This document shows, in pieces, positions 6,317 through 60,389 of a stretch of 64,000 bases of DNA. The DNA is from Syntrophales bacterium (GTDB lineage Bacteria > Desulfobacterota > Syntrophia > Syntrophales > PHBD01): positions 2,400,001 through 2,464,000 of the forward strand of contig OY764159.1 of the NCBI GenBank assembly GCA_963668175.1, in the 5' to 3' direction. The position numbers and the translations under genes were made by a program. Numbering within the stretch: the first letter of the stretch is position 1; each line of letters begins with the position of its first letter. The notes below the pieces were generated by a model. The model made no database searches and was not told where the DNA came from. It saw only the letters and a list, made by a program, of their open reading frames with translations.

Positions 6317-8599
6317 CTATTTCGCCCGGCCGGTCAGTTGGAAGGCCGACCAGTAGTAAGGATGGGGGTACTTCTTCCTCGTCTCCAATTGGGCCTTGCG
6401 CAGGGCGTCGAGCTTGTCCGTCTGCTGCATCCCCTTGTAAAACCGGATCATGAGTTCGGCCGTCGCCAGGTCGTCCACCTTCCAGAGGCTCGCGACGATG
6501 GAACTCGCGCCCGCATAAAGGAATCCCCGCGTCAGGCCCACGAGGTCGTCGCCGTTGGCCACCTTGCTCAGGCCCGTTTCGCAGGCGCTTAGGGTGATGA
6601 GGTTGGCGTCGAGCTTCATGGCGTAGAGCTTGTCCACCGTCAGCATGCCGTCGGACGGGCCGTCGGGGGAAAGCAGGAGCGCCGACTGCAAAGGGTTCTC
6701 CGGCGAAAACTGGCCGTGCGTGGCGAAGTGGAGGTAACGGTAATCCCCGCCGTACCGGCGGACGATCTCCTCCGTGGCCTCCTTGCGCACATAGACCTTG
6801 GAGCCCGGCCATATCTTGGCGACCTCGACCGCCTCCTTCTGGGCAAAGGCCAGGTCATTGGCCGGATTGCCGAGATCGGGATTGCCCAGGGCCATGATGC
6901 CCCCTGTCTTGGCGTCCTTCCTGTCCCTGAGGTACTTCATGGCGCTGGCGCTGGGCATCAGGCGGATATGGTAACGGTCGATGAGGTACTCTTTCCCGTC
7001 GTGGAGGGCGTTGAAGGGGATGTAATGGAGCACCCCGTGGGAGACGACGACGAGGTCGCGTCCGGAGAGTGCCCCTTCGAGGGGCGCGAACAGGCGGCGG
7101 TACAGCTTCGCGGCCAGCGCCTGGGCGTCCGGCGAATTGGGCGTCTCCAGCGATTTCCTGAAGGCCGCGACGTCGCCGGCCAGGCCCGAGGGGTCGATTT
7201 TCACGCCCTGCAGGCCCTTGGCGGAAAGGACGAAGGCGAACATGTCGCTTCCGGAATAGTAGTATTCGACGAGCGATTCCCCCGGCGAGAGCAACGCCGT
7301 CATGTCGGCAACGGGCGTGGCGTCGACGGTGACGAGGGAGGCCAGTTCCGGCGCGTCATGCTGGAGATCCTGCCGCGCCTTGACGGCGACGGACCGGACC
7401 TGCGGCCGGTTGACGTTCCGGTCCATGGTCATGATCTCCGTCTCCGACTTGTCGCCGTCGGCAATCGCCCGGCGGACCTGCTCTTCGCGTCCCGCCGCCT
7501 TCACTGCGAAGTCCTTCTTCCCCGCCAGGAGATCGACCAGGGCGCGGGATTTCGACCGCTCCACGTACTCGAAGGACTTCGCGTATTGTTTATCCTTATA
7601 GAGCGCCGCGATAAGTCCGTGATAGACGGCCTGCTTGTCCCCGACAAAGCCGATCTTCCCCGCCTCGACCTTGATGGTGGAGCGATGCTGCTCGATTACC
7701 GCCACGGCCTTTTCGTAGAAGCCGATGGCCTCTTTCAGGTTCCCCTCCTTTTCGGCGATGCGGCCGCGGTCGTACAGGGCGATCCAGTACATCTCCCCGC
7801 GGTCGTGGATATAGGGATACTTCAGGAGCGCGTCGTAGCCCTGCTTGGCCTCGGCGGTGCGCCCCACCTCGAAGAGGCTCTTGTCCTTCATGAACTCGAA
7901 GGAGAGCTTGTTGTTGGTGAAGACGTCCCAGCCGCTGATCGATTTGAGGAAGGTGTTGGAATCCTCGAACTTGTAGGAGACGGCGTCGATGGCGTCGTTG
8001 TATTTCTTCAGGATGATGTAGATTCTGGCGAGGCCGATGTTGCGGTCGTCCTTGACGAGCATATAGGGGTATCCGAGGTAGAGCCCCTTGAGCTGCGCGG
8101 CGGCGGCCTCGGCCTTGTCCGTCCTGCCCGCCAGCGCATAGGCGATGCCCAGGGTTTCCAGGACCTTGACCTCGTCGAAGCGGGTCAGACCGCTATCGAC
8201 GACGGTCTTGTTCGAGAGTTCGGCCGCCTTGACGGCCTCTTCGTACTGGCCGAGCTCGATCAGGGCATTCGCCCGGTAGCGGGAAGGCGTCGCCGAATGG
8301 TTCCACGCGTCGGCGGTGTAATCACCGGCGTCCACCTTGGCCTGGGCCTCATTCAGGCAGGGAAAGAGCTTCTCGTAATTCTTCAACTCGCCGTAGGCGG
8401 AACAGAGGTAGATCAGGTCCTGGAAGACGAGGCCCGAATATTTCCCCGAAGGGGGCTCGAATTCCCGGACGATCTGCGTGTAATTCGCCTCGGCTGCGAG
8501 ATTCATCCCCTTGCTGTTGAACGACGACGCGCACCCGGAAACGACCAGCACCGCCGCCAGAACGGCAAACCACGTGTACCTTCTTGCTCCCGCCATCAT
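6317..8599 (-). CDS. TPR + CHAT-domain (caspase-fold) protease, predicted lipoprotein
   Basis: Lipobox VVSGC, TPR-like helices, ERSKSRAL, HGVLHYIPFNAL, LHFATHG (His), LSACETG (Cys), SLWKVDD, HPYYWSAF. Confidence 0.92.
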   Translation of the reverse strand: MMAGARRYTWFAVLAAVLVVSGCASSFNSKGMNLAAEANYTQIVREFEPPSGKYSGLVFQDLIYLCSAYGELKNYEKLFPCLNEAQAKVDAGDYTADAWNHSATPSRYRANALIELGQYEEAVKAAELSNKTVVDSGLTRFDEVKVLETLGIAYALAGRTDKAEAAAAQLKGLYLGYPYMLVKDDRNIGLARIYIILKKYNDAIDAVSYKFEDSNTFLKSISGWDVFTNNKLSFEFMKDKSLFEVGRTAEAKQGYDALLKYPYIHDRGEMYWIALYDRGRIAEKEGNLKEAIGFYEKAVAVIEQHRSTIKVEAGKIGFVGDKQAVYHGLIAALYKDKQYAKSFEYVERSKSRALVDLLAGKKDFAVKAAGREEQVRRAIADGDKSETEIMTMDRNVNRPQVRSVAVKARQDLQHDAPELASLVTVDATPVADMTALLSPGESLVEYYYSGSDMFAFVLSAKGLQGVKIDPSGLAGDVAAFRKSLETPNSPDAQALAAKLYRRLFAPLEGALSGRDLVVVSHGVLHYIPFNALHDGKEYLIDRYHIRLMPSASAMKYLRDRKDAKTGGIMALGNPDLGNPANDLAFAQKEAVEVAKIWPGSKVYVRKEATEEIVRRYGGDYRYLHFATHGQFSPENPLQSALLLSPDGPSDGMLTVDKLYAMKLDANLITLSACETGLSKVANGDDLVGLTRGFLYAGASSIVASLWKVDDLATAELMIRFYKGMQQTDKLDALRKAQLETRKKYPHPYYWSAFQLTGRAK

Positions 8600-8721
8600 G
8601 AACACCCCTTAGCGTTTTCTTCGCTTATACCACAACGGCGGGGGAAACGGAAACATACGATAAGGGCGGCCGGGGGACGATCAGGTTCTCCGTCCGGAAT
8701 ACGCCGTCAATGGGCGGTCTC

Positions 8722-9315
8722 TCACTTCTTTCCGTCCGGCTTGCCGGCGTAGAAAGGCATCCACCGCCCGATCATTCTCAGATCGGGTTCCGGGCGCCCG
8801 GAAATATCCGCCAGGAGGCGGAAAAAGCGCTTCTTGTCCTCTTCCGTAAAGAGATTGATATGGATGGCGATATGCCGTCCCATCGTCGACCTGAAGAAAA
8901 GCAGGAGTTTGTTCGCCGTCGCTTCGCTTTCCATGATCGTCATGGGCGTGCGCTGCGGCGTGGCCCCGCCGTAAGGCGTGGTGGACGAGCCGAATTGGTA
9001 GGCGGCGTTTGCGAAGGGGATAACCGTCTCGCCGAAGAGGCGGGATACGGAAATCCTGTCCGGATGGACGGTTATCTTCCTGGCGAGATAACTGTCGAGG
9101 ACCCGGAGGAAAGCCGCCACGCCTAACGTGGCGATGACGATCATGGACGTATTCCAGGCGATGGACCCGCCGGCGGCGAGCCTGGCGGCATTTCCCATGA
9201 TCATGCTGAGGAAGAACAGACATACAACGGAGTAGAGAAAAATACCGACGGCCCTGGGAAGCCGTTTGGCGCGGTAGTCGAAATCGGCGGTTGGCCGTGC
9301 ATCGTTATCGGTCAT
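8722..9315 (-). CDS. Hypothetical membrane protein (2 TM + bacterial PH-like segment)
   Basis: Two hydrophobic helices then KITVHPDRISVSRLFGETVIPF. Confidence 0.6.
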   Translation of the reverse strand: MTDNDARPTADFDYRAKRLPRAVGIFLYSVVCLFFLSMIMGNAARLAAGGSIAWNTSMIVIATLGVAAFLRVLDSYLARKITVHPDRISVSRLFGETVIPFANAAYQFGSSTTPYGGATPQRTPMTIMESEATANKLLLFFRSTMGRHIAIHINLFTEEDKKRFFRLLADISGRPEPDLRMIGRWMPFYAGKPDGKK

Positions 9316-15809: not shown

Positions 15810-17345
15810 TCAAGCCAGCGGTTTTTCCTTGGCGGCGTTGATGCCGGCGTTCCTGCCGAAGACGATGCAGTCCACCGTGGCGTTCCCGCCGACACGGTTG
15901 GTGCCGTGGACGCCGCCGGTGACTTCGCCCGCAGCATAAAGCCTCGGGATGATCTTGTCGTCCCGGCCGATGACCTGGGCGGTCGTCCCCTCGGTCTGGA
16001 CGCCTCCCATCGTGTGGTGCACGCCGGCCTGGGTCGGGCTGGCGTAGAAGGGACCTTTGGTGACGGGCTTCAGGTTGTCCGGTTTCTTGCCGAACGCGTC
16101 GTCCTTCCCCTTCACGACGGCGTCGTTGTATTTCGCCACCGATTCGAGGAAGGTCGTTTCCGGCACCTGGAGTTTATCGTTTAAGATTTTCGCGAGGCCT
16201 TCCAGCGTGTCCGCCCGGAAGGCGAGGCCGTCCTTGATGATCTCCTCGGTGATTTTCGCGTTGAACCGCTTGGCGCACTGCTCGTCGGCGACCCAGAGAA
16301 GCACCTTCTTGGTCTGCTTCAGGACGGCTTCGGCCATGACGTCGCGGCGCTGGTCCTCGGCCACGAAACGCTTGCCTTCGAGGTTGACGAAGAGGGCGTG
16401 GTCCACGCCGAGGTTCGTCAGGGAGCCGTACTGCTTGGTGTAGTAGTTGCACGCGATCAGCATCTGGATGTAGTCCATCCCGATGACGTCGGCCCCTTCG
16501 TTTTCGGCGATAACGATCGATTCGCCCGTGGCCGTCGCCACGTTGGTCGTCGGCACGTCGGCCGTAAGGCGCGGGTCGTGCTTCATGCGCATCGCGACAT
16601 CCGCGCCGAAGCCTCCCGTTGCGAGGATGACGGCCCGGCGCGCCTTGATAAAGACGTCTTTCTTCTTCTCGACGACGACGGCCCCGAGGATGTCTCCCTC
16701 CAGGGGCTTCTGACGGACGAGGGCCTTGAGCTTCACGTTCATGAGGATGGGGATCTTCCTCTTGTCCACCTGATCCTTGAGCACCTTGATGATCAGACCG
16801 CCCCGGCCCTTGTCGACGGGGTCGAAGCTCCGGGCCCACAGCGCGCCGACGGCCGTGTAGGGCTTCGGATCGAAAGCGACGCCCAGCTGTTCCAGCCATT
16901 TGCGGCCCGCCAGGGCGTTGAACGTCATGTATTTCACCTTCTCCGGATCGCCGCGGTAGTCGCCGCCGGCAAGCGTCTGCGAGTAGTGCAGCTCCGGCGA
17001 ATCCTTAATCCCGTACTTCGCCTGGACGTCCGGCTCCGAACAATTGTAGATGCCGCTCGCGATCGCCGAGTTGCCGCCGATGATCGCCGCCTTCTCGACG
17101 ATGACGACCTTCGCCCCCGCGTCGTGGGCCTCGATGGCGGCGGCCAGGCCCGCATAGCCCGTCCCCACGATGAGGACGTCCGTCGTTTTGTCCCATTTCT
17201 TCGGCGGGGCCACCGCCTCGACCCTGCCCGGAAGCAGCGCGCCCGCCGCCAGGGTCCCGGCCATGGCCGCGCCTGTGCCTGCTATGAATTTACGTCTGCT
17301 GATGCCTTGTTCCCCTGCATCGTTCTTCCTTTCGTTATTTTCCAT
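15810..17345 (-). CDS. Tat-exported flavocytochrome c flavin subunit (FccA/UrdA superfamily, no heme domain)
   Basis: SRRKF Tat motif, GTGYAGLAAA, ILATGGF, GKRFVAE, HHTMGG, AAGEVTGGVHGTNRVGGNA. Confidence 0.9.
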   Translation of the reverse strand: MENNERKNDAGEQGISRRKFIAGTGAAMAGTLAAGALLPGRVEAVAPPKKWDKTTDVLIVGTGYAGLAAAIEAHDAGAKVVIVEKAAIIGGNSAIASGIYNCSEPDVQAKYGIKDSPELHYSQTLAGGDYRGDPEKVKYMTFNALAGRKWLEQLGVAFDPKPYTAVGALWARSFDPVDKGRGGLIIKVLKDQVDKRKIPILMNVKLKALVRQKPLEGDILGAVVVEKKKDVFIKARRAVILATGGFGADVAMRMKHDPRLTADVPTTNVATATGESIVIAENEGADVIGMDYIQMLIACNYYTKQYGSLTNLGVDHALFVNLEGKRFVAEDQRRDVMAEAVLKQTKKVLLWVADEQCAKRFNAKITEEIIKDGLAFRADTLEGLAKILNDKLQVPETTFLESVAKYNDAVVKGKDDAFGKKPDNLKPVTKGPFYASPTQAGVHHTMGGVQTEGTTAQVIGRDDKIIPRLYAAGEVTGGVHGTNRVGGNATVDCIVFGRNAGINAAKEKPLA

Positions 17346-17660
17346 GATGCTGCTCCTTTCTTCCACAAGTGACCGTGCTTATACCAGGTTTTCGATTCTT
17401 TGTCTTCGGAAATGTCATACAATCATGTATTCATGAAAGACGGACCTTTTCTATGATACGGCAAATCGCCGGCGGCGGTCCATGAAAAAAATCAGGGCAA
17501 GCTTCCAGGCAGGACGTAGTCGGCCCGGTTGCGTTTTCCCGGATTTGTCGGTTTGCTCCGGGCATGCCCGGCGTCCCGCGATGCCGGGGCGACGCTCGAA
17601 AAGAGGTCGGCCCTCCCGGACTGCCGTTGCCGCCCCGGGGAAGAGACTCGCGGCGCATCC

Positions 17661-34102: not shown

Positions 34103-35797
34103 TCAGTCCTTCGGAGTGTCTGCTTTTGCTGTGCCCGCAGGGCTGCCGTCCGCGAGGGGCAGTTCGCCCTGGTCCTTGCGCCGCCGCGCGGTCCGCGCGG
34201 CCTTCAGGGCCTTGTCCCCGTCGGGTTTCCGGTCTTCGTTGACGTAGACCGTCTGCGACGGGAAGGCGAAGCCGCCGCCGCACGACTCGACAAGGTCCAT
34301 GATCCTAAGGAGCAGTTCCTCCTGCACGGCCAGGAACCTCTCGTAGGTCGTTTCCAGGACATAGGCGAAGATCTTCACATCAAGGGACGACGCGCCGAGG
34401 GCGGCGAAATGGACGCGGGCGCCTTCGTCGTCCACGGCGGGGTGCGTTTTCAGGAGCGCGCGGACTTCCGCCGCGATGAGGCGGATCTGGTCGGCCGTCG
34501 TTTCGTAGCGCAGGTTCAGGGTATGGCGGAAGAGAAAGCGGTTCCGGAGGGTATAGTTTTCGACGCTGATCGACGAGAGCTGGCCGTTGGGAATGAAGAC
34601 GACCGTGCGGTTGATGGTGCGGATCTGTGTGGAGCGCAGGCCGATGTGTTCGACCGTGCCCTCGTATTCGCCCGCCTTGCAGTAATCGCCGACGCGGATC
34701 GGCTTGTCCCAGACGAGGAAAACCCCGCCGAAGAAATTCTCGATCGTCTTCTGGGCGGCGAAGGCCACGGCGAGGCCGCCGACGCCGAGGCCGGCGAACA
34801 CGGCCGTCAGGTTGATGCCGGCGAAGTAATAGAAGATCACGACGAGGCCCGCGACGATGACAAGGGCCTTGAGAAGCGTCGCCGACAGGCGGATGACGGC
34901 ATACGTGGCGGCGGGCTGGCGTCTTTCGATGATCCCGGCGCCGACGTCGATCAGGCGGATCAGGATCCACGTCAGGCCCGCGACGGCCAGGGTCGAGGCC
35001 AGGAACGTCCAGAAAAGGCGGCCCAGGAGCGACACCGTGCCGAGCGACAGGACATAGACCGCCCCCGCCGTGAAGAGGAGCATCAGGGGTTGCCGGGTCC
35101 CTTTGAATGCCGCCAGCGTCGGTTCATCGAAGCGGCGGCGGAGCGGCTCCCGCAGCAGGAAGAAAGAGATCAGGGTGCACAGCCAGCCGAGGAAGAGGGC
35201 CGCGGGCAGGATCACCAGGGGCAGAAGCCAGAAATAAAGCTGCCAGCCCGCAATCCGGGTTTCCGTCAGCGCGGCCGGAAGGTGCCGTTCCAGCCAGGTG
35301 ACGTCGAGCTCCTCGTATATCTCCGGGATGATTTTGAGCGTCTCGGAGGAGAAGAGCCAGACGGGCGGATTGTTCTCCTTGCGGACCCGTTCGAGGAGGA
35401 TCTTGAAATCGCCCTTGCTCGTCTTGACGACCCCCACAACCTCGCTGTTGACGGGCAGGCCGTCGTTGAGGTTCCCCTCGGGCTTGGAGCTCAGGGACGT
35501 TTGCGCGGTCGACAGGCCCTGGTCGAGGATCTTTTGCAGTTCCTGGGCGAGCTGCTGGGCCCGTTTTCCCGTCTGATAGGTGTCCAGGTAATCGACGGCC
35601 CGGTCCTCGTTCCCCTTTTCCATGGCCTTCAGGAAGCCGACGAACGTACCCTGGGGGGTGCTGCGGCCCAGGGGGTCGTCGTAGGTATCCGCGGCCTTCT
35701 TGGCGGCGGGCGTGTCCGCCTTCACGGCGGAAGGGGCCCCGGCGATGGCGATACAAACGGCGACTGCGACGGCGAACAGGATACGGAAAAACGGCAT
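34103..35797 (-). CDS. mscS: MscS family mechanosensitive channel with an N-terminal periplasmic domain
   Basis: GLGVGGLAVAFAAQKTIENFFGG, DKPIRVGD, GTVEHIGLRST, IPNGQL, FAFPSQT. Confidence 0.92.
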   Translation of the reverse strand: MPFFRILFAVAVAVCIAIAGAPSAVKADTPAAKKAADTYDDPLGRSTPQGTFVGFLKAMEKGNEDRAVDYLDTYQTGKRAQQLAQELQKILDQGLSTAQTSLSSKPEGNLNDGLPVNSEVVGVVKTSKGDFKILLERVRKENNPPVWLFSSETLKIIPEIYEELDVTWLERHLPAALTETRIAGWQLYFWLLPLVILPAALFLGWLCTLISFFLLREPLRRRFDEPTLAAFKGTRQPLMLLFTAGAVYVLSLGTVSLLGRLFWTFLASTLAVAGLTWILIRLIDVGAGIIERRQPAATYAVIRLSATLLKALVIVAGLVVIFYYFAGINLTAVFAGLGVGGLAVAFAAQKTIENFFGGVFLVWDKPIRVGDYCKAGEYEGTVEHIGLRSTQIRTINRTVVFIPNGQLSSISVENYTLRNRFLFRHTLNLRYETTADQIRLIAAEVRALLKTHPAVDDEGARVHFAALGASSLDVKIFAYVLETTYERFLAVQEELLLRIMDLVESCGGGFAFPSQTVYVNEDRKPDGDKALKAARTARRRKDQGELPLADGSPAGTAKADTPKD

Positions 35798-35914
35798 GAC
35801 GGCAACCTTCCTCAAAAATGGTCCGCTTTTCTTATCACATGTCGGGAAAGAAATCCGCTATTTGATTTTACCGGGTAGACGGCACCGAAGGGGGGTAAAA
35901 AGCCTGGATATCGT

Positions 35915-36086
35915 GAAGAGCGCTGCAATGCCCTTATGCATAAGCTGAACTCAGCTTGATCGAAACTGCCATTGAGGCAGTTTACCTTTACTGCAAAGAC
36001 CTGTCGTTTTCTTTTGACCTCACAGTATGGACATTTCACTTATCACGTCCCGCTGACGTGACCCGAGCATTGCAGCTGCTCCGCTT
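35915..36086 (-). ncRNA. Candidate structured RNA (closing stem + four internal hairpins)
   Basis: Long-range stem 36065-36081/35918-35933, four hairpins, and a sigma-70 promoter directly upstream (see findings). Confidence 0.55.
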
Positions 36087-36092
36087 AGGTTT

Positions 36093-36121
36093 AATTTATG
36101 GACGGTCCTTCCCTTTGTCAA
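36093..36121 (-). promoter_or_regulatory. Sigma-70 promoter
   Basis: TTGACA-N17-TAAATT on the minus strand. Confidence 0.7.
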
Positions 36122-36261
36122 GGAACGGGAAAAAATGAAGGATAATCAGGGGCTTCAAACGGCGGCAGCGGAAAACGGCGGGACGAATCGGGGAGGGGCG
36201 GCGGCCTCCGGGAAAGGACGGCCCGCGAAGGACGTCTCTTTCCGGAGGATGCGCCGGGCCG

Positions 36262-36498
36262 TCAGGCCGTCGTGTTCAGATTGTTCCCGACTTCGTTGTT
36301 TTCAATAAAAGGCGATTTTTGATTCTGCTGACTGCTTGCCGCCTCCAGGGGGTGCTTCTGCATGTACGCCGTTCTTTCCGCATCGGAAACGACGCCGTCC
36401 TTGTTGGTGTCCATCTTGTCGTAGACGCCGCTGCCCGATGAATCGGTGCTTCCCGACTGCAGGACATTGGTGCTGGATGTTACTGCCGATACCGTCAT
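36262..36498 (-). CDS. Small EF-hand protein
   Basis: DTNKDGVVSDAE EF-hand loop; AAGGAGAG RBS. Confidence 0.75.
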   Translation of the reverse strand: MTVSAVTSSTNVLQSGSTDSSGSGVYDKMDTNKDGVVSDAERTAYMQKHPLEAASSQQNQKSPFIENNEVGNNLNTTA

Positions 36499-36847
36499 GT
36501 CTTCTCTCCTTTCGCTGGCGCCGTACCTGCGGGCCGGATCTGCGCCGGTCCGCGCGGCCGGGCGTGTTGTCCGTTCTTCCGGCTGCCCGTTCGTTTACGG
36601 GCTGGGTCTCCTGCGGGAATACCCGGGCCGCCGTTTCCGCGGCCATGCCGGACAGTCCTCTGCTATGGCTATCGGCGTTCCGCCTTTACCGCTCAAGTTA
36701 AGGAGTGTTAAGTATTGAAAAGGAATCGACTACAATTTTTTCGGAAGCGTAAACAGTTTTATGGTACAAAGACCGGACGGGTTCCCCCGCCCCGTATCGT
36801 TGCGGGCGAGGAGCTGCATGAGCCGCGATGCGTCGAAAGGAGGCGTT

Positions 36848-57954: not shown

Positions 57955-58518
57955 TTACTTGGCCCCGAGGGGCAGGACGGTGCGGCCGAAGCTTTCGTTG
58001 ATCACCTGCGCCATGGCGCAATAGATCGCCAGGAAGCCGCAGACGACACCCTCACAGCCCGTGAGGACCGCCCAGGTGCCCTTCCAGCCGAAACCGTCGC
58101 GGGCAGCCAGCATCCAGAAAAGGATCGTCAGGGTAAGGAACACGGTCTGGAGAACGCGGTTGGCCTTCCAGGTCCCGATCCACATGAAGAAGGTGAACAA
58201 ACCCCACATGAAGAGATAGGCCGCCATGAAGCACTCGCTGTTGGCCTGGATGCCGAGTTTCCCGTTGAAATAGATCAGGTAGACCAGGGTCATCCAGAAG
58301 AAACCGTACGACGTGAAAGCGGTGGTGCCGAAAGTATTGCCTTTCTTGAATTCCATGATCCCGGCGACAACCTGCGCCAGGCCTCCGTAGAAGATCCCCA
58401 TGGCCAGAATGCCGGCGCCCAGTTCGAACATTCCGGCATTGTGCAGATTCAGGAGAACGGTGGTCATTCCGAAACCCATAAGACCCAGCGGAGCAGGATT
58501 GGCTAAATTGTCTGACAT
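57955..58518 (-). CDS. satP: Acetate uptake transporter (GPR1/FUN34/YaaH family)
   Basis: LANPAPLGLMGFGMTT signature, GNTFG..AFTSYG. Confidence 0.93.
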   Translation of the reverse strand: MSDNLANPAPLGLMGFGMTTVLLNLHNAGMFELGAGILAMGIFYGGLAQVVAGIMEFKKGNTFGTTAFTSYGFFWMTLVYLIYFNGKLGIQANSECFMAAYLFMWGLFTFFMWIGTWKANRVLQTVFLTLTILFWMLAARDGFGWKGTWAVLTGCEGVVCGFLAIYCAMAQVINESFGRTVLPLGAK

Positions 58519-58757
58519 GATGAACCTCCTAGAAAATATTGATTTTTTACAGGATAAGACAACTCCTTTCTTGACGGGGATGGTCTCCCTTTCGTCTGCC
58601 GGGCCGGTTTAAGGCTGCCTGGCCCGGTACGCAAACGAGAGAGGAACGCTTCGCCCCCGTTGAGGGCGAAGCGATGATTTTTACGTCAGCTGCGATACAG
58701 GGATACGAAGCTACGACGGGCAATCCGTTTCCGCCGCCTTTCGGCGGCGGTATGTTT

Positions 58758-60389
58758 TCAGAAGTCCTTGAAGTCGTCTTCGAGCGGGATGATCTGCTCG
58801 GGGGTTTTTTGACCCGGGGTCTTGGCCGGGGCGCGCCCGACCCTACGGGCGGCCGGTACAGGCTTAGCGGCCGCGCCGATCATTTTGCGGCTGCCGCCGT
58901 TGCCGTTGTTGCCGCCGCTGACGGCGGCTTCTTCAGCCGGGGCGTCGGCGATCTTATGGCCCGTGATGATGGCGTTCAGATCCGACACAAATCCCTTCAT
59001 TCCCAAGGCCTGCGCGTTCAGTTCTTCGGAGGCGCTGGCCGATTCCTCGGAGGTGGCCGCCTGGGACTGGGTCACCTTGTCCATTTCGTTGATGGCCGTG
59101 TTGATCTGGCCGATGCCCTGGGCCTGCTCGCTGGAGGCGGCGGCGATCTCGTCGATCAGCCCGGCGATCTTGTTCGACATTTCGATATTTTCCCGGAAGG
59201 CCTCCTGGGTGATCTGCGTCGCCTCGTAGCCGGTCTTGACGTTCTTGATGGTGCTTTCGATGAGGCCGCTGGTGTTCCTGGCCGCTTCGGCCGCGCGCAT
59301 GGCGAGGTTCCGGACCTCGTCGGCGACGACGGCGAATCCCGCCCCGGCTTCTCCGGCGCGGGCCGCTTCCACCGCGGCGTTGAGGGCCAGGAGGTTCGTC
59401 TGGAAGGCGATTTCGTCGATGGTCTTGATGATCTTGCTCGTCTCGTCGCTCGATTTCATCGCTTCCATGATCGCGACGGACATGCTGTCCATGTGCTTGT
59501 TCACGTTGGAGATGATCTTGCCGGCCTCGGCCACCATGCCTTTCGCCGTTTGGGCGTTGTCGGCGTTTTGTTTCGTCATCGAAGAGAGCTCCTCCACCGA
59601 GGCGGATGTCTCCTCCAGCGAGGCCGCCTGCTGCGTGGCGCCTTCCGCCAGGGACTGGCTCGACGCGGCCACCTGGGCCGAGGCCGCCGCGACTTGGGCG
59701 GCGCCGTCGCTGATGCCGGTGATGACGCGGACGATGGGCTTGGTGATCATGTGGGCGAAGACGAAGCCGAAGGCCAGGGAAACGACGACGCCGATTCCCG
59801 TGCCGCTGAGGGCCAGGATCTTGAATGTGGCCGCGGCGTGTTCGGTATTGGCGGCGTTTTCCTTCACTTCCTTCGTGTTCAGGGCCATGAGTTCGTCAAG
59901 GTCCTTGGACGTCGCGTAGTAGCTGTCCCTGAGTTTGTTGTTCGACAGGTTGGCCGCATCCTCCCGGTTGGCGGCCTTGATCATGTCGATGTACTGGAGG
60001 TAATCGCGTTTCCAGATATCCATCGACTTCTTGGTCTTTTCCCATTGGGCCGCCTGCGCCTCGCTTTTGGGCAGGGCCGAGAAGACTTTCGACCCCTCGT
60101 CGATACGCTTCCAGGTGGCGTCGATGTTCTCGTACTGGCGTTTTCTGAGATCTTCGTTCATGGTGATCTCGGGAACGAGAAGCGAACGTTCGGGGATGCG
60201 GGCGAAAGTCTGGGCTTCCTTGATGTCCGCCAGGGCCTTGAGACCGGGCATGCGGTTGTTGTTGGTGTCCACAAGGGCCTTTTCCGTCTGGTGGACTCCG
60301 AAAGTGCCGATGGCTCCCCCTACGATGAGCATGGCCGCAAGGCAGGAAAAACCGAAAATCAACTTGGTTCTCAACGTCAGATTCTTCAT
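58758..60389 (-). CDS. Methyl-accepting chemotaxis protein
   Basis: Two TMs, helical sensor domain, [37 protein letters not shown]. Confidence 0.95.

What the first reader, a model, noticed from the sequence alone, without database searches (positions are those of the whole stretch)
35915..36121. Candidate novel ~170-nt multi-branched RNA with its own sigma-70 promoter, upstream of mscS
Seen on the minus strand: TTGACA-N17-TAAATT places the TSS near 36086, immediately before GAGCAGCUGCAAUGCUC, which pairs with GGGCAUUGCAGCGCUC (35933-35918). This stem encloses four hairpins: UCACGUC/GACGUGA (36061-36043), UACUGUGAGG/CUUUGCAGUA (36027-35989, three G-U pairs that work only on this strand), AAACUGCC/GGCAGUUU (35983-35963) and AAGCUG/CAGCUU (35957-35942). 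The region is less GC-rich than its flanks, so chance GC pairing is an unlikely explanation. By eye it does not match lysine, cobalamin, c-di-AMP, c-di-GMP, SRP or tRNA consensus; a divergent 6S is not excluded. Inference: a stand-alone sRNA or a riboswitch-like leader for the channel. An overlapping 75-codon ORF (MKCPYC, 35812-36039) is an alternative reading.
Basis: partly seen in the sequence, partly recalled or inferred. Interest (0 to 1): 0.75.

Follow-up and report, generated by a model that had tools for sequence, protein, structure and literature searches.

The report
Orphan structured leader RNA before mscS
A very stable, four-hairpin RNA fold sits right after a good promoter at the start of the long leader of a mechanosensitive-channel gene in a Syntrophales bacterium; it matches no known RNA family, and no relative could be found, so its function is untested.

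Summary
On the minus strand, 36081-35918 folds into a 16-17 bp closing stem around four hairpins (-69.2 kcal/mol, z -4.8 to -5.1). This fold is more stable for its composition than all 2554 background windows of the 64-kb window, and its ensemble is unusually well defined. A TTGACA-17-TAAATT promoter ends 12 nt before the closing stem. The fold has six G-U pairs and no A-C mismatches, which favours an RNA read from this strand.

No Rfam family matches, even at E<=10. The overlapping 75-codon ORF is not a gene: GC3 is 0.44 against 0.71-0.88 in real genes, and it has no credible homologue. No terminator lies between the element and the MscS-type gene (ATG at 35797). The best reading is therefore the 5' domain of a ~290-nt leader, not a discrete sRNA.

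The test that would establish a new RNA family could not be passed. nhmmer and a covariance model found no relative in 58 loci (1.01 Mb), which include 29 Syntrophales mscS orthologues with upstream DNA (57-67% identity). It remains a strong but orphan candidate.

The parts
36093..36121 (-). Sigma-70-type promoter: -35 TTGACA (36121-36116), 17-nt spacer, -10 TAAATT (36098-36093). The inferred TSS is near 36086.
   Evidence: the only promoter-like site in 35500-36600, 10 of 12 matches; matches of >=10/12 are concentrated in non-coding DNA of this window (12 of 14 hits in about 25% of the bases), so this promoter type appears to be used here. The TSS is inferred, not measured.
36065..36081 (-). 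P1, 5' strand of the closing stem (GAGCAGCUGCAAUGCUC).
   Evidence: inverted repeat I4.
36042..36062 (-). Hairpin H1: 8 pairs, 5-nt loop AGCGG.
35985..36030 (-). Hairpin H2: 10-pair core 36027-35989 with three G-U pairs, extended by CC/GG, and a 19-nt A-rich loop.
35963..35983 (-). Hairpin H3: 8 Watson-Crick pairs, loop UCAAU.
35942..35957 (-). Hairpin H4: 6 pairs, loop AGUU.
35918..35933 (-). P1, 3' strand of the closing stem (GGGCAUUGCAGCGCUC).
35798..35917 (-). Rest of the leader (120 nt). It has no terminator. SD GAGGAAGG lies at 35813-35806.
   Evidence: no minus-strand terminator-like site; full-leader fold; the 3' half of the SD is mostly unpaired.
34103..35797 (-). MscS-family (YnaI-like) mechanosensitive channel gene, 564 aa from the ATG at 35797.
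   Evidence: Pfam MS_channel_2nd / 3rd / 1st. Orthologues align from residue 1. The two closest homologues are also 564 aa. GC3 is 0.87.
35812..36039 (-). 75-codon ORF (MKCPYC...), judged non-coding.
   Evidence: GC3 is 0.44 against 0.71-0.88 in real genes. No Pfam match. No hit in the word-index search. Only repeat-inflated matches to two MBG_2-repeat giant proteins. No tblastn hit in 58 loci.

Best explanation
The element is a real, strand-specific, highly structured non-coding RNA domain. It has a five-way junction: closing stem P1 plus hairpins H1-H4, about 165 nt. It starts about 5 nt after the transcription start of a sigma-70-type promoter and forms the 5' part of a ~290-nt leader of an MscS-type (YnaI-like) channel mRNA. 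It most likely acts in cis on that mRNA. It could be a 5'-terminal structure that sets mRNA stability or translation, or a docking or sensing platform for a protein or small ligand. It belongs to no curated RNA family and, as far as could be searched, is confined to this sparsely sampled Syntrophales lineage. Shown here: the fold, its statistical exceptionality, the promoter match, the non-coding nature of the region, and the lack of a terminator. Inferred: the transcription start, read-through into mscS, and any regulatory action.
For: Fold and its statistics:
- The fold is both MFE and centroid, with z -4.79 and z -5.06.
- It is the lowest composition-corrected energy of 2554 windows.
- Ensemble diversity is 10.8 against 40.2 +/- 14.5, with 0 of 200 shuffles as low.
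- The fold is unchanged in 309-nt and 481-nt contexts.

Strand:
- There are six G-U pairs and no A-C 1x1 mismatches on the minus strand, and the minus strand is 8.8 kcal/mol more stable than the plus strand.

Promoter and leader:
- The promoter (10 of 12) ends 12 nt before P1 and is the only promoter-like site before mscS.
- This promoter type is concentrated in non-coding DNA (12 of 14 hits).
- Five other such promoters with a same-strand gene directly downstream start 41-124 nt from the start codon. This one starts 324 nt away.
- No terminator-like site lies on the minus strand before the ATG, while a canonical terminator is seen elsewhere in the window.

Coding:
- The region is non-coding.
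Against: - No relative was found. nhmmer gave 0 hits in 58 loci. The covariance model with default filters hit only itself in 1,013,577 bases.
- With filters off, the model found only short hairpin-only matches in 14 of the 58 loci (171,233 bases) and in the window. The best was 22.9 bits, inside GC-rich coding-looking DNA.
- The best-folding windows upstream of the 29 Syntrophales orthologues differ in shape and sequence.
- There is therefore no covariation and no evidence of conservation.
- The hairpins are almost perfect, as in young palindromic DNA.
- The plus strand also folds significantly.
- No expression platform was recognised: no terminator, and the SD is only partly paired.
- There are no transcript data.
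Confidence: 0.45

Rival explanations
1. A cluster of DNA palindromes or a decayed small mobile or repeat element (MITE-, REP- or BIME-like, with the P1 arms as terminal inverted repeats). It happens to lie in the leader and has no RNA function of its own.
For: The hairpins are near-perfect and a 10-nt exact inverted repeat flanks 135 nt. The plus strand folds nearly as significantly (z -4.50). The element is absent from all orthologous loci, as a recent insertion would be.
Against: It is single-copy in the 64-kb window by BLAST and by the filter-off model. It has no copy in 58 loci and no match in plasmids or phages. I saw no target-site duplication at the P1 flanks in the sequence. Mismatches are strand-biased (6 G-U, 0 A-C), which DNA-level symmetry does not predict. 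No transposase lies next to it.
Confidence: 0.2
2. A stand-alone sRNA, or a 5'-UTR-derived sRNA of about 170-190 nt released by processing or Rho-dependent termination, that acts in trans.
For: It has its own promoter, and its compact closed architecture brings the 5' and 3' ends together in P1. An A-rich 19-nt loop and single-stranded junctions could serve as seed regions.
Against: No intrinsic terminator follows P1, although the organism has canonical terminators. mscS has no other promoter-like site.
Confidence: 0.15
3. A chance or functionless structure in AT-richer intergenic DNA.
For: There is no conservation evidence of any kind.
Against: 0 of 200 shuffles reach its energy. It is the lowest of 2554 background windows. 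Its ensemble is exceptionally well defined. The promoter sits exactly at its 5' edge.
Confidence: 0.1
4. A multi-hairpin terminator or insulator for the upstream 78-codon gene, of the kind described as a hairpin-cluster terminator.
For: Clusters of hairpins have been proposed as intrinsic terminators (PMC8355165, abstract and outline seen). The element lies downstream of a co-oriented ORF that ends at 36262.
Against: That abstract places 98% of such sites within 80 bases of the stop codon, whereas P1 starts 181 nt after the stop. A separate GC-rich hairpin (36248-36205) lies directly after the stop. The element is downstream of a promoter, not upstream of it.
Confidence: 0.05
5. The 75-codon ORF (35812-36039, minus strand) encodes a small protein and the pairing is incidental.
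For: The frame is open with a zinc-ribbon-like MKCPYC start. Its stop overlaps the mscS ribosome-binding site.
Against: GC3 is 0.44 against 0.71-0.88 in 30-odd real genes of the window. It has a GTG start with no SD, no Pfam match and no word-index hit. The full HMMER scan of 1.84 billion representatives gave only two hits, both to >2000-aa proteins with 16-21 MBG_2 repeats, where many weak repeat matches add up. There was no tblastn hit in 58 loci.
Confidence: 0.02

Closest known systems
Lysine riboswitch (L-box, Rfam RF00168)
   Same: The overall topology is the same, recalled from the published structure: a five-way junction with a closing P1 and four hairpins, about 170-180 nt, at the 5' end of a leader for a membrane transport gene.
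   Different: No match to the Rfam model even at E<=10 with permissive filters. No terminator or SD-sequestering platform was found. No conserved core could be tested.
6S RNA
   Same: Similar length (~170-180 nt), its own promoter, and a long closing stem formed by the two ends.
   Different: The fold is a multi-branch of four hairpins, not a rod with a central bubble. No 6S-type Rfam model matched at E<=10. No terminator follows it.
c-di-AMP (ydaO/kimA) riboswitch and other osmotic or ion-linked riboswitches
   Same: The genetic context is osmotic or ion homeostasis. The literature searches returned only c-di-AMP riboswitches in connection with MscS.
   Different: No Rfam match. In the one paper opened, the riboswitch passages seen concern a kimA reporter plasmid, not a leader of mscS.
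5'-terminal stabilising stem-loops of mRNAs (for example the ompA leader; recalled, not searched)
   Same: A stable structure at the extreme 5' end of a long leader of an envelope-protein mRNA, with no obvious ligand-switch platform.
   Different: Those elements are simple hairpins within a few nucleotides of the 5' end. This one is a 165-nt five-way junction about 5 nt from the inferred start.
MITE / REP-type palindromic repeats
   Same: Terminal inverted repeat arms, near-perfect internal palindromes, an intergenic position, and absence from orthologous loci.
   Different: Single copy in everything searched. No target-site duplication was seen. Mismatches are strand-biased towards G-U.

Membership tests
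Any curated Rfam family (release 15, 4227 models) | Score at or above the family's gathering threshold | tested here: not met
   0 matches in the whole window at gathering thresholds. At E<=10 on 35700-36400 there were only four weak chance-level hits (ROSE_2 15.6 bits against a gathering score of 65, and three others).
Lysine riboswitch | Conserved L-box core sequence and structure (RF00168) | tested here: not met
   No RF00168 hit at E<=10. Only the five-way topology is shared.
6S RNA | Rod-like fold with a large central bubble; match to 6S models | tested here: not met
   The MFE and centroid are a four-hairpin multiloop. No 6S model matched at E<=10.
Riboswitch (generic) | Aptamer conserved with covariation across species | tested here: inconclusive
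   No homologue in 58 loci. The nearest available orthologues have only 57-67% MscS identity. The DNA of the 96% and 88% homologues could not be reached.
Riboswitch (generic) | Expression platform: terminator/antiterminator or SD sequestration that alternates with P1 | tested here: not met
   No terminator-like site on the minus strand. In the full-leader fold the 3' half of the SD is 86-94% unpaired. When the 5' strand of P1 is blocked, its 3' strand re-pairs inside the element and not with the SD region.
Riboswitch (generic) | Direct ligand binding | not testable with these tools
   This needs in-line probing, SHAPE or ITC.
MITE / REP repeat element | Multiple copies per genome | tested here: inconclusive
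   Single copy in the 64-kb window and none in 58 loci. The rest of the source genome is not available.
MITE / REP repeat element | Target-site duplication flanking the terminal inverted repeats | tested here: not met
   By inspection, the flanks ...CTAAGCG | P1 ... P1 | TTCACGA... share no direct repeat.
Protein-coding small ORF | Codon composition like the genome's genes; homologues | tested here: not met
   GC3 is 0.44 against 0.71-0.88. No credible homologue.
Hairpin-cluster intrinsic terminator | Located within about 80 nt downstream of a stop codon (abstract of PMC8355165) | tested here: not met
   P1 starts 181 nt after the stop of the 78-codon ORF and lies downstream of a promoter.

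The most novel reading that the evidence does not exclude
A previously undescribed, lineage-restricted riboswitch-like RNA with a five-way junction. It would sense an ion, an osmolyte or a second messenger and control a mechanosensitive channel directly at the mRNA level. That would be the first RNA sensor dedicated to an MscS-type channel. It may work together with the neighbouring single-EF-hand-like small protein, or with a protein that binds the four AGCGG(G)A motifs in the leader.
Probability: 0.08. Interest if true: 0.8.

Novelty: new member of a known kind. Interest (0 to 1): 0.4.

Why it matters
None of the papers my searches returned describes an RNA-level regulator of a mechanosensitive channel. 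The listed hits concern c-di-AMP riboswitches on other genes (listing; passages of one paper). If this leader senses a signal, it would link osmotic or ionic state directly to channel synthesis in a syntrophic anaerobe, and it would add a new five-way-junction RNA fold. If it is only a stabilising 5' structure or a decayed palindromic insertion, it is ordinary. At present it is one sequence with excellent thermodynamic statistics and no evolutionary support, like many orphan candidates.

Tried and rejected
Searches that found no relative:
- Rfam at gathering thresholds and at E<=10: nothing credible.
- BLAST of the element against the window, plasmids and phages: no copy.
- nhmmer against 58 loci: 0 hits.
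- Single-sequence covariance model R1 with default filters over the window plus 58 loci: only itself.
- R1 with filters off over 10 small Syntrophales loci, over L003/L004/L007/L014 and over the window: only hairpin-only matches with the interior of the model deleted. The best (L004 12151-12208, 22.9 bits) lies in GC-rich coding-looking DNA. The remaining 15 Syntrophales loci with upstream DNA were searched with default filters only.

Context in related loci:
- Synteny: none of the window's neighbours (78-aa ORF, alpha/beta hydrolase, histidine kinases) is conserved next to the orthologues.
- A simple stem finder for closing stems upstream of orthologues returned only chance-level stems.
- Of the best-folding upstream windows, those in L014, L021 and L005 were folded individually. 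They are unrelated structures.

Other tests:
- ORF75 as a gene: rejected.
- A switch model: no terminator and no SD-sequestering alternative.
- AGCGG(G)A occurs four times in the leader. The exact hexamer AGCGGA occurs 3 times against 0.10 expected (P about 1.6e-4, post hoc). In the 29 orthologue upstream regions it is not enriched: 4 loci have one copy each.

Literature:
- mscS + riboswitch (passages of one preprint): nothing about an mscS leader.
- Syntrophus + small RNA terms: badly targeted and uninformative.
- Syntrophus + riboswitch: 3 papers, none on this.

Not checked:
- The source genome beyond the window is unavailable.

Full report
**The observation.**
- closing stem P1, 36081-36065 with 35933-35918
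- H1, 36061-36043
- H2, 36027-35989
- H3, 35983-35963
- H4, 35957-35942

RNAfold recovers this architecture without constraints as both MFE and centroid for 36090-35910. The energy is -69.2 kcal/mol, z -4.79, with 0 of 200 dinucleotide shuffles as stable. A repeat with my own shuffler gave z -5.06. The same fold survives when the sequence is embedded in 309 nt and in the whole 481-nt intergenic region. The ensemble is unusually well defined: mean base-pair distance is 10.8 against 40.2 +/- 14.5 in shuffles, with 0 of 200 as low.

As an empirical control I folded 2554 windows of 175 nt from the whole 64-kb window (both strands, step 50) and regressed energy on composition. The element's residual (z -4.65) is below all 2554. 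The caveat is that the element was taken in its optimal register and the background windows were not.

**Strand and promoter.** The plus strand also folds significantly (-60.4 kcal/mol, z -4.50), because most helices are Watson-Crick palindromes. Three things favour the minus strand. It is 8.8 kcal/mol more stable. It contains six G-U pairs, three of them in H2. No A-C 1x1 mismatch interrupts a helix; an A-C mismatch would be the G-U equivalent for the other strand. A decaying DNA palindrome should collect both kinds equally, so 6:0 is modest evidence (about 1 in 64) for constraint on a minus-strand RNA.

The promoter TTGACA-17-TAAATT (36121-36093) is the only promoter-like site on either strand in 35500-36600. 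Across the window, matches of 10 or more out of 12 to this consensus fall in non-coding DNA in 12 of 14 cases, although only about 25% of the bases are non-coding. The organism therefore seems to use this promoter type. The -10 hexamer ends 12 nt before P1, which puts the inferred start about 5 nt before the structure. Five other such promoters that have a same-strand gene directly downstream start 41-124 nt from the start codon. This one starts 324 nt away. The leader is therefore unusually long for this window.

**Surroundings.** The gene downstream is an MscS-family channel (Pfam MS_channel_2nd, 3rd and 1st). Several sources name its relatives YnaI-like or MscS family. Its start is the ATG at 35797, preceded by GAGGAAGG. 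Orthologues align from residue 1, and the two closest homologues are also 564 aa.

Upstream on the same strand lies a 78-codon ORF (36262-36498). Its GC3 of 0.71 looks coding. It contains a loop, DTNKDGVVSDAE, that fits the EF-hand pattern as I recall it, but it has no Pfam match. The organism belongs to the Syntrophales, because all close MscS relatives come from that order.

**Is it a known RNA?** No. Rfam release 15 gives no match in the whole window at gathering thresholds. A permissive scan of 35700-36400 at E<=10 gives four chance-level hits, the nearest being ROSE_2 at 15.6 bits against a threshold of 65. Lysine, 6S, c-di-AMP, cobalamin, SRP and the other curated families are therefore excluded as far as Rfam models can tell. 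The topology of P1 plus four hairpins is that of the lysine riboswitch as I recall it, but that is only a resemblance.

**Is it a gene?** No.
- The 75-codon ORF has GC3 0.44, against 0.71-0.88 in the real genes of the window.
- It has a GTG start with no SD.
- It has no Pfam match.
- It has no hit in the 5.8-billion-protein word-index search.
- It has no tblastn hit in 58 loci.
- A full HMMER scan of 1.84 billion representatives gave two hits (E 2e-6 and 7.5e-4). Both are proteins of more than 2000 aa with 16-21 copies of the MBG_2 repeat, where many weak matches of about 26 bits to identical repeats add up. I regard these as repeat-inflated noise.

**Is it conserved?** This is the test that matters, and it could not be passed. 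It returned 58 loci, of which 30 are Syntrophales (29 with upstream DNA) at 57-67% identity. The window's own species is not in that collection.
- nhmmer found nothing.
- A covariance model built from the single sequence and its structure (177 positions, 49 pairs) found only itself in 1,013,577 bases with default filters.
- With filters off, the same model found only short hairpins, with the interior of the model deleted, in 14 loci and in the window. The best was 22.9 bits in L004, inside GC-rich coding-looking DNA.
- Neighbouring genes are not syntenic.
- The best-folding windows upstream of the orthologues have other shapes and sequences.

The protein search shows why. Only two clusters are close to the window's channel (96% and 88% identity), and everything else is at 70% or below. 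The element is therefore not a general leader of this channel family in Syntrophales. Whether it is conserved in its own lineage remains open.

**Leader, sRNA or DNA element?** There is no terminator-like site on the minus strand between P1 and the ATG, although a textbook terminator occurs elsewhere in the window (about 15780-15740, minus strand). There is no second promoter-like site for mscS. Read-through into mscS is thus the simplest expectation, and I favour a leader over a discrete sRNA.

A classical riboswitch is not evident. In the full-leader fold the 3' half of the SD is 86-94% unpaired. When the 5' strand of P1 is blocked, its 3' strand re-pairs within the element and not with the ribosome-binding region.

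The main rival is a DNA-level palindrome cluster or a decayed MITE-like insertion. The near-perfect hairpins and the absence from orthologous loci fit it. Against it stand single-copy status in everything searchable, the lack of a target-site duplication, the G-U bias and the precise fit to the promoter. A hairpin-cluster terminator for the upstream ORF is unlikely. According to the abstract of PMC8355165, such sites lie within 80 nt of the stop. This element starts 181 nt after the stop and lies behind a promoter.

**Verdict.** The element is real and is probably an RNA-level structure at the 5' end of the mscS-type leader (confidence 0.45 for the cis-acting leader reading). It is unknown to Rfam and has no evolutionary support, so it remains an orphan candidate. 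I rate interest at 0.4. The statistics are unusually good and the context of a channel gene is new for a structured leader, but a single sequence cannot establish a family or a function.

Noticed in passing
window 36085, 36054, 35859, 35827 (minus strand, first base of each motif): The motif AGCGG(G)A occurs four times in the ~290-nt leader: at the inferred 5' end, in the H1 loop, and twice in the 60 nt before the SD. The exact hexamer AGCGGA occurs 3 times against 0.10 expected (P about 1.6e-4, post hoc). Only 3 of 12,742 sliding windows in the 64 kb hold three copies. The motif is not enriched upstream of the 29 orthologues. It could be a protein-binding motif.
   Followed up: partly
window 36262-36498 (-): A 78-codon ORF with coding-like GC3 (0.71). 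Its loop DTNKDGVVSDAE fits the EF-hand calcium-binding pattern as I recall it. It has no Pfam match and no tblastn hit in 58 loci. It lies directly upstream of the structured leader and the channel gene.
   Followed up: partly
window 58510-58770 (-): A second strongly structured intergenic region (-98.2 kcal/mol, z -4.82, 0 of 200 shuffles). It has several GC-rich hairpins and lies upstream of the ORF 57955-58518 (-), which has an AGGAGG ribosome-binding site. It ranked top of the background scan. Rfam at E<=1 gave only a weak plus-strand cold-seep-1 hit (20.9 bits against a threshold of 125.8).
   Followed up: partly
window 36224-36211 and 36113-36100 (minus strand): The 14-nt sequence GGGCCGTCCTTTCC, in the hairpin after the 78-codon ORF, is complementary to GGGAAGGACCGTCC in the spacer of the promoter (13 of 14 pairs). 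In a read-through transcript the two could pair and compete with the hairpin 36248-36205.
   Followed up: no
window about 15780-15740 (-): A canonical intrinsic terminator (13-bp GC-rich stem, 5-nt loop, U6 tail) lies after the gene 15810-17366. It shows that this organism uses U-tract terminators.
   Followed up: no
window 8351-9125 (+): Several windows with unusually low composition-corrected folding energy (z -3.2 to -4.1) overlap or lie antisense to the ORFs 6317-8605 (-) and 8722-9315 (-). A 201-nt piece folds with z -2.99.
   Followed up: no
L005 9700-9745: A perfect 17-bp GC-rich hairpin lies upstream of the MscS orthologue of another Syntrophales genome, inside a 175-nt window with z -5.34. 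It is unrelated in sequence to the element studied here.
   Followed up: no
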